Origin: an uncultured Candidatus Saccharibacteria bacterium
Lineage (GTDB): Bacteria > Patescibacteriota > Minisyncoccia > Minisyncoccales > GWA2-38-27
Assembly: GCA_964609075.1 (NCBI GenBank)
Contig: CAZSQP010000001.1
Location: forward strand, 33,593 to 97,592
DNA length: 64,000 nucleotides
Reading direction: 5' to 3'
Below, piece after piece: positions 56,234 to 56,650 of the stretch. The first letter of the stretch is position 1, and every line of letters begins with the position of its first letter. The notes beneath the pieces were generated by a model. The model saw only the letters and a list, made by a program, of their open reading frames with translations, did not search any database and was not told the origin of the DNA. The position numbers were made by a program, and so were the translations under genes.

Positions 56234-56289
56234 GTTAGCGAACGAAGAAAATCGTGTTCTTCGGAACGATGGCAAGGTTGTCCGCTAAC
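56234..56289 (+). repeat. Module H4 (UUCG type)
   Basis: Stem GTTAGCGAAC/GTCCGCTAAC. Loops agaaaatcg and tggcaaggt. Inner hairpin GTTC-TTCG-GAAC. Confidence 0.7.
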
Positions 56290-56291
56290 TT

Positions 56292-56351
56292 ATGAGAGGA
56301 GACGAGGAAGAGTTTGTCCAAAAAGACGAAAAGAACTCTGTCTCCTCTCAT
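56292..56351 (+). repeat. Module H5 (A-rich type)
   Basis: Perfect 12-bp stem ATGAGAGGAGAC/GTCTCCTCTCAT. Loops ggaagagtt and aaagaactc. Inner element GTCCAAAAAGAC. Confidence 0.7.
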
Positions 56352-56361
56352 TATAAACAAA

Positions 56362-56417
56362 GTTGGCAGACGAGCATAGGGGTGTTCTTCGGAACGAGGT
56401 GGGGAATGTCTGCCAAC
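56362..56417 (+). repeat. Module H6 (GTTGGCAGAC stem family, UUCG type)
   Basis: Stem GTTGGCAGAC/GTCTGCCAAC. Loops gcatagggg and ggtggggaa. Confidence 0.7.
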
Positions 56418-56422
56418 TAAAA

Positions 56423-56476
56423 GGGCGAGACGAGTGGTGTATTGTCTTGAAAGACGACGTTTGATTTGTCTCGCCC
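56423..56476 (+). repeat. Module H7 (A-rich type, GGGCGAGAC stem family)
   Basis: Stem GGGCGAGAC/GTCTCGCCC. Loops gtggtgtat and cgtttgatt. Inner element GTCTTGAAAGAC. Confidence 0.7.
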
Positions 56477-56495
56477 CCTTTTCAAGCATATTAAA

Positions 56496-56520
56496 TTTAT
56501 AGAGAACGATCCTCTATAAA
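56496..56520 (+). repeat. Mini hairpin TTTATAGAG-AACGATC-CTCTATAAA inside array B
   Basis: 9-bp stem with an AACGA-containing loop and no variable loops. Stem sequence is shared with the hairpin of dispersed repeats R1 and R2. Confidence 0.5.
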
Positions 56521-56537
56521 AATGATATCCTTGAAAA

Positions 56538-56586
56538 GGGGACGGAACACGCGTTGTCTCGAAAAGACGAAGAACGTAATGTCTCC
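56538..56586 (+). repeat. Module H8 (A-rich type, short stem)
   Basis: Stem GGGGAC/GTCTCC. Loops aacacgcgt and agaacgtaa. Inner element GTCTCGAAAAGAC. Confidence 0.55.
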
Positions 56587-56592
56587 CTAAAA

Positions 56593-56650
56593 CGCTGGCA
56601 AACGTAAGGCAGCATGTTTTAAAGAACGAAGGCTGATTTGTTTGCCAGCG
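56593..56650 (+). repeat. Module H9 (variant inner hairpin GTTTTAAAGAAC)
   Basis: Perfect 11-bp stem CGCTGGCAAAC/GTTTGCCAGCG. Loops aaggcagca and aggctgatt. Confidence 0.65.

What the first reader, a model, noticed from the sequence alone, without database searches (positions are those of the whole stretch)
56234..56650. Strict module grammar with two-fold pseudo-symmetry and a 36-nt core
The well-formed modules read as follows (H1, H2, H10 and H13 deviate at single positions). Outer stem ending in GAC (GTTGGCAAAC in H9), then G, x(A)N9, T. Inner hairpin GT(T)C..GA(A)C of 11-13 nt, then G, A-N9 (G-N9 in H11 and H16), T, and GTC (GTT in H9, H12 and H16) opening the outer stem complement. The conserved G and T can form G-U pairs that close both helices. 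This leaves a symmetric internal loop of about 10 x 10 nt whose two strands both read GACG-A-N9-TGTC. The RNA therefore presents two equivalent half-sites, as expected for binding by a protein dimer; box C/D sRNAs with Nop5 dimers are the classical example. The segment between the outer stem halves is 12+12+12 = 36 nt in most modules (35-37 when the inner hairpin is 11 or 13 nt). That matches the tigRNA length I recall for TIGR-Tas, which may be coincidence. The first inner hairpin class is a canonical cUUCGg-type tetraloop (GTTC-TTCG-GAAC).
Basis: seen in the sequence. Interest (0 to 1): 0.85.

Follow-up and report, generated by a model that had tools for sequence, protein, structure and literature searches.

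The report
Stem-loop TIGR guide-RNA array with TasR
The repeated hairpin modules are a "stem-loop" TIGR array: tandem dual-spacer guide RNAs flanking the gene for their partner protein, a nuclease-dead TasR, in a candidate-phyla-radiation bacterium. This system was first described in 2025-2026, so the locus is a new example of a known kind.

Summary
Sixteen complete modules and one partial module lie on the + strand between 55960 and 58607. Each reads outer stem, C-G-A, 9 nt, U-G, short inner hairpin, C-G-A, 9 nt, U-G, outer stem. The stems covary, the two 9-nt strands are hypervariable, and the full grammar occurs nowhere else in the window.

The modules flank an ORF (56753-58006) that passes NCBIfam's "TIGR-Tas system RNA-guided endonuclease" cut-off. 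Its best match by sequence and predicted fold is the solved TasR structure 9MTY. It is 50% identical to the Buchananbacteria TasR that the TIGR-Tas discovery paper names as having an inactivated RuvC. In 80 related CPR genomes the same grammar lies beside the tas homologue: 521 modules on its strand, 15 on the other.

The RuvC-like domain has R7, L120 and K158 at catalytic positions, so the likely activity is RNA-guided DNA binding or transcriptional repression, as shown for CsTasR.

One feature was absent from the two TIGR-Tas papers I searched. A solitary box D-hairpin-box C element abuts the tas ribosome-binding site, is conserved across relatives, and may mediate autoregulation.

The parts
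55868..55952 (+). tRNA-Leu(CAA). It ends 7 nt before M1 with no promoter between, so it is probably co-transcribed with sub-array 1.
   Evidence: ARAGORN; Rfam tRNA, 58.5 bits; promoter scan. The closest relative L002 has the same tRNA upstream of its array.
55960..56142 (+). Sub-array 1: modules M1 (55960-56007), M2 (56015-56074) and M3 (56084-56142).
   Evidence: Module parsing; alignment A1 and pair counts.
56144..56176 (+). Intrinsic terminator after M3.
   Evidence: Terminator scan: 12-bp stem followed by a T-run.
56198..56226 (+). Sigma-70-like promoter (TTGACA, 17 nt, TATTAT; 11 of 12 matches) driving sub-array 2.
   Evidence: A paralogous copy lies at 58256-58284.
56234..56651 (+). Sub-array 2, the interval of the finding: M4 (56234-56290), M5 (56292-56351), M6 (56361-56418), M7 (56423-56476), M8 (56538-56586) and M9 (56592-56651).
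   Evidence: In a fold of the whole transcript, M4, M5, M6 and M9 fold as independent modules (z = -10.5).
56475..56541 (+). Look-alike hairpin without boxes, between M7 and M8. It has a 12-bp outer stem, 9-nt and 9-nt internal loops and a 9-bp inner hairpin, but no CGA/TG motifs. It overlaps the stems of M7 and M8.
   Evidence: Sequence; it wins in the MFE fold. Function unknown.
56659..56681 (+). Terminator-like hairpin plus T-run after M9.
   Evidence: Read from the sequence; folded. It was not flagged by the consensus scan (few G-C pairs).
56688..56746 (+). tas leader. It contains two solitary box D-hairpin-box C elements (56688-56708 and 56717-56735) separated by 8 nt. The Shine-Dalgarno sequence AAGGAG (56741-56746) follows where a 'spacer B' would lie.
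   Evidence: Sequence. The element is conserved upstream of tas in relatives, and its box-C type covaries with that of the array.
56753..58006 (+). tas gene (417 aa): a TasR with a RuvC-like N-terminal domain lacking catalytic residues (R7, L120, K158; D161 retained), a roughly 78-aa insertion (residues 37-114), a coiled coil and a Nop-type C-terminal domain.
   Evidence: Pfam; NCBIfam; PDB sequence searches; alignment A2; AlphaFold model, pLDDT 92.8; Foldseek.
58054..58072 (+).
   Evidence: Sequence.
58085..58204 (+). Sub-array 3, downstream of tas and probably co-transcribed with it: M10 (58085-58137) and M11 (58146-58204).
   Evidence: No promoter lies between the tas stop codon and M10.
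58205..58238 (+). Intrinsic terminator after M11.
   Evidence: Sequence. The hairpin was detected, reported on the opposite strand; a T-run is also present on the + strand.
58256..58284 (+). Second sigma-70-like promoter (11 of 12 matches), driving sub-array 4.
58293..58607 (+). Sub-array 4: M12 (58293-58348), M13 (58352-58408), M14 (58422-58479), M15 (58484-58537) and M16 (58550-58607).
58608..58644 (+). Terminator-like hairpin plus T-run after M16.
   Evidence: Sequence.

Best explanation
The locus is a stem-loop-type TIGR-Tas system of a CPR (Patescibacteria) bacterium.

Transcription. There are four + strand transcription units, and each ends in a terminator:
- tRNA-Leu with M1-M3
- a promoter with M4-M9
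- the leader, tas and M10-M11
- a promoter with M12-M16

The RNA units. Together these encode 16 guide-RNA units. Each unit folds into a covarying outer stem of 6-12 bp and a short inner hairpin. This leaves two 9-nt single strands, spacers A and B. Each spacer is preceded by box C (C-G-A) and followed by box D (U-G).

Inferred mechanism, by homology to solved Tas complexes:
- A coiled-coil TasR homodimer binds the two pseudo-symmetric box C/D pairs, one at the outer stem and one at the inner hairpin.
- Host RNases trim the A-rich linkers to give tigRNAs of about 50-60 nt.
- Spacer A pairs with 9 nt of one DNA strand and spacer B pairs with the adjoining 9 nt of the other strand, which defines an 18-bp target with no PAM.
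- Three of the four RuvC catalytic acids are replaced, so the complex most likely binds without cutting and blocks transcription. This has been shown experimentally for the related CsTasR.

The natural targets are unknown.

Shown here: the module grammar, covariation, spacer hypervariability, the family assignment and fold of the protein, the substitutions at catalytic positions, and conservation of the arrangement in relatives.

Inferred: dimer binding, processing, DNA targeting and repression.
For: - Grammar and enrichment.
- Covariation, with both N9 strands unpaired in the consensus.
- Spacers versus scaffolds: scaffolds within the same stem class are 84% identical, but their spacers are only 29% identical, the same as between classes at 28%. 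The same stem classes recur in the closest relative L002 with compensatory changes and unrelated spacers.
- Protein family: NCBIfam TIGR_Tas_endo 155 bits against a cut-off of 100; 9MTY_A phmmer 1e-15 and profile 4e-21.
- Predicted fold: AlphaFold model pLDDT 92.8. Its best PDB match is TasR 9MTY (1.9e-12 over 329 columns), followed by IS621 and TasH.
- Named relative: 50% identity to the Buchananbacteria scaffold that PMC12045711 names as an inactive-RuvC TasR (L013).
- Catalytic positions: R7 and L120 occupy the first two, conserved in the alignment of 48 homologues. K158 aligns with the first D of TaTasR's DxxD motif. This parallels R8 and V126 in CsTasR (bioRxiv 10.64898/2026.09.09.750476).
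- Clade features: the insertion between beta3 and beta4 (residues 37-114) and the hairpin between the spacers both match that paper's description of the CPR TasR clade.
- Relatives: in 80 loci there are 521 modules on the tas strand against 15 opposite. Of those 521, 463 have 9/9 spacers. Box C is CGA in 713 of 1042 half-sites, and the modal inner hairpin is 12 nt.
- Regulatory signals: promoters and terminators.
Against: - There are no expression, processing or binding data for this locus.
- No target was found. The window holds no match to any composite 18-mer beyond what mismatched A/B controls give.
- Three composite targets scanned against IMG/VR gave none, none, and one family of 55%-GC contigs, which is chance level.
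- The catalytic-residue assignment rests on motif and profile alignment, and the N-terminal profile match is weak (6 bits). D161 and the nearly invariant D125 are retained, so residual activity is not excluded.
- M8 competes with a stronger alternative hairpin in the MFE fold.
- The CUU motif reported at processing boundaries is not present here; the homologous position reads CGA.
Confidence: 0.88

Rival explanations
1. The same TIGR-Tas system, but TasR is an active RNA-guided nuclease that acts as an anti-phage or anti-plasmid defence by cutting both strands of the target.
For: The NCBIfam model that the protein matches is named an 'endonuclease'. TaTasR, the best structural match, cuts DNA (PMC12045711). 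D161 and D125 are nearly invariant acids in the RuvC-like domain.
Against: - The first catalytic Asp position is R7. It is Arg, Gln or Trp, never Asp, in the homologues shown in the printed alignment.
- The Glu position is L120, and the first Asp of the DxxD motif aligns to a conserved Lys.
- The related CPR proteins CsTasR (R8, V126) and PateTasR showed no cleavage in vitro (bioRxiv 10.64898/2026.09.09.750476).
Confidence: 0.07
2. The ORF is an IS110-family transposase, and the modules are its bridge-RNA-like or terminal repeat sequences, so the locus is a mobile element.
For: Pfam Transposase_20 at 3.6e-8 and a weak DEDD_Tnp_IS110 hit. Homologues are annotated 'transposase' in public records. 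IS621 is the second-best fold match.
Against: - NCBIfam IS110 scores 54 bits against a cut-off of 140, while TIGR_Tas scores above its own cut-off.
- The DEDD residues are replaced.
- There are 16 tandem units with hypervariable 9+9-nt loops, not a single bridge RNA.
- The gene is single-copy and sits in syntenic chromosomal contexts in many CPR genomes.
Confidence: 0.02
3. The modules are box C/D-like guide RNAs that direct modification (for example 2'-O-methylation) or binding of RNA targets rather than DNA.
For: The topology is the same as that of archaeal box C/D sRNAs: terminal stem, two guides, and internal C'/D' elements. The partner protein also has a Nop domain.
Against: - There are no RUGAUGA/CUGA boxes or k-turn motif.
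- The protein carries a RuvC-like domain rather than a fibrillarin-binding N-terminal domain, and Nop5/Nop56 structures are only marginal fold hits (E about 2).
- TaTasR had no activity on RNA substrates (PMC12045711).
Confidence: 0.02
4. The modules are generic intergenic palindromes (REP-like elements or stacked terminators) with no guide function.
For: They are hairpins in intergenic DNA, and some are followed by terminators.
Against: - The boxes are invariant at fixed spacing, the spacers are strictly 9 nt, and all modules lie on one strand.
- In relatives the modules occur only next to tas: 521 on its strand against 15 opposite.
- The spacers are hypervariable inside conserved scaffolds.
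Confidence: 0.01

Closest known systems
Stem-loop TIGR arrays of the CPR TasR clade (CsTasR from Candidatus Staskawiczbacteria; the Buchananbacteria RIFCSPHIGHO2_02_FULL_56_16 TasR). Sources: PMC12045711 section 9 and bioRxiv 10.64898/2026.09.09.750476.
   Same: - Variable palindromic outer stems replace an edge repeat.
- Two 9-nt spacers are each bracketed by box C and box D.
- A hairpin lies between the spacers.
- Arrays lie on both sides of tas, split into sub-arrays.
- TasR has a dead RuvC domain, a roughly 80-aa insertion between beta3 and beta4, and no C-terminal Y/H processing loop.
- The protein is 50% identical to the Buchananbacteria protein.
   Different: - This is a different species and locus (Logan assembly of SRR15425350).
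- The protein is 417 aa, against 547 aa for CsTasR.
- Box C reads CGA here rather than the CUU reported for PateTasR.
- The leader hairpin at the tas ribosome-binding site and the recurrence of a few conserved stem classes are not mentioned in those papers.
Dual-repeat TIGR-Tas (TaTasR, PDB 9MTY; SpTasH).
   Same: Both have a Nop-domain Tas dimer, tandem 9+9-nt spacers, box C and box D anchors with a C-G pair, and pseudo-two-fold RNA symmetry. 9MTY is the best match by sequence and by fold.
   Different: Dual-repeat arrays use two constant short repeats and yield 36-nt tigRNAs, which are cut by a Y/H loop in Tas, and TaTasR and SpTasH are active nucleases. Here the 'edge' is a unit-specific long stem, the Y/H loop is absent, and RuvC is inactivated.
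Archaeal box C/D sRNPs (Nop5 dimer, L7Ae, fibrillarin).
   Same: The RNA topology is the same: terminal stem, guide, internal element, guide. A symmetric coiled-coil Nop-domain dimer measures two guides.
   Different: Here there are no k-turn boxes and no L7Ae or fibrillarin. The guides are 9 nt, and the targets are DNA by homology, not rRNA or tRNA.
IS110/IS621 bridge-RNA recombinases.
   Same: The RuvC-like and Nop-like (Transposase_20) domain architecture is homologous. The guide RNA has bipartite loops.
   Different: Those systems use a single bridge RNA that specifies donor and target, an active DEDD plus Ser recombinase, and a mobile element. None of these applies here.
CRISPR arrays.
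   Same: Both are tandem arrays of variable guides next to an effector gene, and both are transcribed and processed.
   Different: Here there is no constant 25-36-nt repeat (the tandem-repeat finder reports nothing in the region), the spacers are split 9+9 nt, there are no cas genes, and no adaptation module is known.

Membership tests
TIGR-Tas, stem-loop type | A Tas protein (Nop-domain family) is encoded next to the array. | tested here: met
   NCBIfam NF052498 TIGR_Tas_endo scores 155.2 bits against a cut-off of 100. phmmer to 9MTY_A gives 1e-15. The top Foldseek hit is 9MTY at 1.9e-12. The gene lies between the sub-arrays.
TIGR-Tas, stem-loop type | Each unit has two variable spacers of about 8-12 nt, each flanked 5' by box C and 3' by box D, with the same motifs at the edge and loop positions. 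| tested here: met
   All 16 units read C-G-N, N9, U-G twice. C12, G13, C37, G38, T49 and G50 are invariant and T24 is nearly so.
TIGR-Tas, stem-loop type | The first base of box C pairs with the G of box D in both halves. | tested here: met
   C12-G50 pairs in 16 of 16 units and G25-C37 in 14 of 16.
TIGR-Tas, stem-loop type | Unit-specific palindromic outer stems replace a constant edge repeat. | tested here: met
   Nine of 12 outer-stem pairs show compensatory changes, and 88% of cells pair. Stem sequences differ between neighbouring units.
TIGR-Tas, stem-loop type | The array lies on the tas strand, upstream and/or downstream, often split into sub-arrays. | tested here: met
   All 16 units are on the + strand, in four sub-arrays on both sides of tas.
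TIGR-Tas, stem-loop type | The C-terminal Y/H tigRNA-processing loop of dual-repeat Tas proteins is absent. | tested here: met
   The protein ends 8 residues after the stretch that aligns to TaTasR residue 294 of 331. The model ends in the last helix, residues 381-416.
TIGR-Tas, stem-loop type | [quoted passage not shown] This is reported as frequent, not as defining. | tested here: inconclusive
   The homologous stem-base position reads CGA in this locus and in 713 of 1042 half-sites of relatives. CUA or CUU occurs only in some sub-clades. No conserved CUU is present in the linkers.
TIGR-Tas, stem-loop type | The array is transcribed and processed into discrete tigRNAs that co-purify with Tas. 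| not testable with these tools
   Only promoter and terminator consensus matches are available.
TIGR-Tas, stem-loop type | Tandem-spacer recognition of an 18-bp DNA target. | not testable with these tools
   No target was found in the window. The viral scans were at chance level.
CPR clade of catalytically dead TasR | A RuvC-like N-terminal domain with substituted catalytic residues. | tested here: met
   R7, L120 and K158 occupy the D, E and D positions, and D161 is kept. The fold match to 9MTY spans 329 columns, including the N-terminal domain. The residue mapping comes from motif and profile alignment only.
CPR clade of catalytically dead TasR | An insertion of about 80 residues (short helix plus beta-sheet) between RuvC strands beta3 and beta4. 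| tested here: met
   In the model, beta3 is residues 30-36 and beta4 is 115-119. Between them lie helix 39-46 and strands 50-55, 72-75, 90-92 and 97-108.
CPR clade of catalytically dead TasR | The tigRNA carries a hairpin in the loop region between the spacers. | tested here: met
   The inner hairpin has 3-4 bp and is 93.5% paired, with two covarying pairs.
CPR clade of catalytically dead TasR | Close sequence relationship to named members of the clade. | tested here: met
   50% identity over residues 1-415 to the Buchananbacteria scaffold_15087 protein cited in PMC12045711 (L013). The record names carried by homologues and the titles of related loci are predominantly CPR.
IS110-family transposase with bridge RNA | DEDD catalytic residues and a family-level score. 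| tested here: not met
   NCBIfam transpos_IS110 scores 54 bits against a cut-off of 140. Pfam DEDD_Tnp_IS110 scores 16 bits against a cut-off of 29. Three of the four acids are replaced.
Archaeal box C/D sRNA | RUGAUGA and CUGA boxes that form k-turns. | tested here: not met
   The boxes are CGA and UG. The only C/D-box snoRNA match (SNORD75) scores 19.7 bits against a gathering score of 50.
CRISPR array | Constant direct repeats of about 25-36 nt that separate the spacers. | tested here: not met
   Tandem Repeats Finder reports no array between 55900 and 58700. The outer stems differ between neighbouring units.

The most novel reading that the evidence does not exclude
The tas mRNA leader carries a solitary Tas-binding half-site: a box D-hairpin-box C element, duplicated here at 56688-56735. 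It sits directly against the ribosome-binding site. TasR may therefore repress its own translation when free protein exceeds the supply of guide RNA. This would be a feedback loop analogous to k-turn autoregulation by L7Ae, and it is not mentioned in the two TIGR-Tas papers I searched.

A second reading is that arrays are built from a small set of mutually orthogonal, evolutionarily conserved stem 'scaffolds' whose spacers turn over as cassettes. That would bear on the open question of how TIGR arrays acquire spacers.
Probability: 0.4. Interest if true: 0.5.

Novelty: new member of a known kind. Interest (0 to 1): 0.3.

Why it matters
The locus adds one cleanly resolved example of the CPR dead-TasR / stem-loop TIGR architecture. 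It has 16 guides, two strong promoters, four terminators and a tRNA-linked sub-array.

It also shows that the module grammar (C-G-A, N9, U-G, hairpin, C-G-A, N9, U-G inside a covarying stem) is specific enough to detect such arrays from sequence alone.

The system itself is already described, so the main result is not new. Two side observations could be useful to the field. First, a box C/D hairpin abutting the tas ribosome-binding site is conserved and covaries with the array's box type. Second, conserved stem classes carry completely different spacers. These offer testable handles on Tas autoregulation and on spacer turnover, the second of which the 2026 preprint lists as an open question.

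Tried and rejected
- Self-targets. I searched the window for composite 18-mers in both possible arrangements (A+rc(B) and rc(A)+B) with up to 4 mismatches. This gave one 2-mismatch hit and five 3-mismatch hits, the same as in 15 controls with mismatched A/B partners. There is no evidence of a target in the window.
- Viral targets. Exact scans of IMG/VR for the composites of M6, M8 and M13 gave 0, 0 and 8 hits. The 8 hits are one homologous gene family on 54-57% GC contigs. That counts as one independent hit, is compatible with chance, and does not fit a 36% GC host. I did not pursue it.
- Spacer A/B pairing. There is a weak excess in this locus (p = 0.007 by duplex energy, p = 0.12 by MFE pairs). 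In 445 modules of relatives the effect is tiny (z = 3.4 for in-register pairs, z = -1.5 for duplex energy). I rejected this as a structural feature.
- tRNA linkage as a general rule. It holds only in this locus, in L002 and in a few others, so it is local synteny and not a family trait.
- Rfam. Apart from the tRNA, nothing comes near a gathering score.
- CRISPR-like repeats. None were found.
- IS110 transposase reading. It fails both the score cut-offs and the catalytic-residue test.
- CUU processing motif. It is not found in the linkers.
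Full report
**What is in the sequence**

Reading 55000-58500 shows short hairpin modules on the + strand, on both sides of a 417-codon ORF. The half-site pattern RACG-N10-TRTY occurs 43 times in the window, against 5.6 +/- 2.3 in dinucleotide-preserving shuffles. 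Of those, 31 lie on the + strand between 55987 and 58599.

A strict full-module expression finds 15 modules, all on the + strand and all in this region. A slightly relaxed expression finds 16, M1-M16. Each module reads:
- an outer stem of 6-12 bp
- C-G-A, 9 nt, U-G
- an inner hairpin of 11-13 nt
- C-G-A, 9 nt, U-G
- the complement of the outer stem

The core between the stem halves is 36 nt in 11 modules, 37 nt in 3 and 35 nt in 2.

**Structure test**

In a 61-column alignment (A1), 89% of cells pair in the proposed structure. This compares with 70% in column shuffles (0 of 500 reach it) and about 40% when partners are slid by 1-3 columns. Nine outer-stem pairs and two inner pairs show compensatory changes. 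RNAalifold independently predicts the same two helices and leaves both 9-nt strands unpaired.

Single-sequence folds let the two 9-nt strands form a few opportunistic pairs. Chimeras carrying a foreign spacer B do almost the same. In 445 modules from relatives the excess is negligible.

Folding the whole 459-nt sub-array 2 gives z = -10.5. M4, M5, M6 and M9 fold as independent modules. M7 and M8 compete with a hairpin that lacks the boxes and lies between them.

**The neighbouring gene**

ORF 56753-58006 hits Pfam Transposase_20 and, weakly, DEDD_Tnp_IS110. Three results place it in the Tas family:
- NCBIfam scores it above the curated cut-off of NF052498, 'TIGR-Tas system RNA-guided endonuclease' (155 bits against 100). 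It scores far below the IS110 cut-off (54 against 140).
- The best solved relative is TaTasR, 9MTY (1e-15; 4e-21 with a profile).
- An AlphaFold model built from 48 homologues has pLDDT 92.8. Its best PDB match is 9MTY over 329 columns, followed by IS621 and TasH.

Homologues are abundant, and the record names they carry are predominantly CPR; several are annotated 'transposase'. One of the related genome loci is the Buchananbacteria scaffold that Faure et al. name as a TasR with inactivated RuvC (L013; 50% identity; PMC12045711).

**Catalytic status**

The first beta-strand ends in G-I-R(7) where RuvC and IS110 enzymes have G-I-D. The strand that should carry the Glu reads V-A-M-V-L(120)-G-G-S-G-D. 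The K-x-D-x-x-D motif of TaTasR aligns to G-E-K(158)-E-K-D(161).

This matches the published CsTasR, which has R8 and V126 and shows no cleavage in vitro but does give RNA-guided transcriptional repression (bioRxiv 10.64898/2026.09.09.750476). Other features of the model also match the clade described there:
- an insertion of about 78 residues between beta3 and beta4
- no C-terminal Y/H loop
- an RNA with a hairpin between the spacers

**Comparison with relatives**

A scan of 185,579 species-representative genomes returned 80 loci, most from CPR genomes by record title. A grammar search finds 521 modules on the tas strand and 15 on the other. Sixty-five loci have at least 2 modules, and these hug the tas gene on both sides.

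Spacers are 9/9 in 463 of 521 modules. Box C is CGA in 713 of 1042 half-sites, with CUA or CUU in some sub-clades. The modal inner hairpin is 12 nt. The 12+12+12 core is therefore a family trait.

**Transcription**

Two promoters matching 11 of 12 consensus positions (56198-56226 and 58256-58284) sit 7-8 nt upstream of M4 and M12. Terminators follow M3, M9, M11 and M16. M1 starts 7 nt after tRNA-Leu(CAA). M10 and M11 follow the tas stop codon with no promoter between.

**Evolution of the array**

The blocks 56010-56300 and 58076-58360 are collinear paralogues with the order B unit, C unit, terminator, promoter, A unit. Units of the same stem class share 84% of scaffold positions but only 29% of spacer positions, no more than unrelated units at 28%.

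The closest relative, L002, has the same stem classes with compensatory substitutions and unrelated spacers. This is the pattern expected of constant scaffolds that carry fast-changing guides.

**Mechanism**

Taken with the published structures, the best explanation has four steps. A TasR dimer binds the two box C/D pairs of each unit. The two 9-nt spacers pair with adjoining 9-nt stretches of opposite DNA strands; the arrangement A+rc(B) follows from the 8-nt 3' overhangs reported in PMC12045711. The RuvC-like domain is dead, so the complex binds without cutting. The outcome is transcriptional blocking.

No target could be identified. The window has none beyond control level. Three IMG/VR scans gave chance-level results. 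The 2026 preprint states the same difficulty for TIGR systems in general.

**Not mentioned in the two papers I searched**

Immediately upstream of tas lie two solitary box D-hairpin-box C elements (56688-56708 and 56717-56735), separated by 8 nt. The Shine-Dalgarno sequence follows where a spacer would lie.
- In 77 related loci, a loosely defined element of this type lies within 80 nt of the start codon in 50.
- The strict form TGTYC-N3-7-GRAC-[GT]N lies within 60 nt in 27 loci. Far from tas its density is 0.019 per kb.
- The Shine-Dalgarno sequence begins within 10 nt of box C in 22 loci. In four loci the ATG lies inside the hairpin loop.
- The box-C type of the leader matches that of the array in 33 of 35 loci (Fisher p = 1e-4, not corrected for phylogeny).

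Neither TIGR-Tas paper mentions a leader, a UTR or autoregulation. Translational autoregulation by Tas is a reasonable hypothesis, but it is untested.

**Verdict**

The system belongs to a kind published in 2025-2026, so this is a new member of a known kind and its overall interest is modest.

Noticed in passing
window 56688-56752: The tas leader holds two solitary box D-hairpin-box C elements (TGTCCTG..CAGGACGA and TGTCCGC..GCGGACGA) 8 nt apart, followed directly by the Shine-Dalgarno sequence AAGGAG and the ATG. A comparable element lies upstream of tas in 50 of 77 relatives (27 of 77 by a strict motif). It sometimes encloses the start codon, and its box-C type covaries with that of the array (33 of 35 loci concordant). 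It is a possible Tas autoregulatory site.
   Followed up: partly
window 56475-56541: Between M7 and M8 lies a look-alike without boxes: a 12-bp outer stem (CCCCTTTTCAAG / CTTGAAAAGGGG), 9-nt and 9-nt internal loops, and a 9-bp inner hairpin whose loop is AACGATC. It has no CGA/TG motifs. It overlaps the stems of M7 and M8 and wins in the MFE fold. It could be a decayed unit, a processing site or an attenuator.
   Followed up: no
window 56010-56300 vs 58076-58360; L002 2702-6592: The sub-arrays are paralogous blocks with the order B unit, C unit, terminator, promoter, A unit. Four or five outer-stem classes recur within the locus and in the closest relative L002, with compensatory changes. Their spacers are no more alike than those of unrelated units (29% against 28%). 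The one exception is spacer B of M3 and M11, identical at 7 of 9 positions.
   Followed up: partly
window 55868-56007: tRNA-Leu(CAA) ends 7 nt before the first module with no promoter between, so M1-M3 may be released from a tRNA co-transcript. L002 has the same tRNA upstream of its array, but most relatives do not.
   Followed up: partly
window 55960-58608 vs the whole window: The tas gene (48.6% GC) and three of the four sub-arrays (42-46% GC; sub-array 3 is 37.5%) are richer in G+C than the window as a whole (35.8%). This could reflect structural or coding constraints, or horizontal acquisition.
   Followed up: no
window 58054-58072: A partial unit lies just after the tas stop codon: CGA, AGAGGAGAA, TG. 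It has no inner hairpin and no closing stem. Its 'spacer' nearly duplicates the 5' outer stem of M10.
   Followed up: no
L082-L089 (IMG/VR contigs): The composite 18-mer of M13 (TGATGCGAAAAACACGGG) matches exactly one conserved gene in eight related viral contigs of 54-57% GC. The composites of M6 and M8 match nothing. This is probably chance.
   Followed up: partly
445 modules in 57 related loci: Spacers A and B of the same unit show a very small but statistically detectable excess of in-register antiparallel complementarity over within-locus shuffles (3.69 against 3.48 of 9 positions; z = 3.4). This is unexplained.
   Followed up: partly
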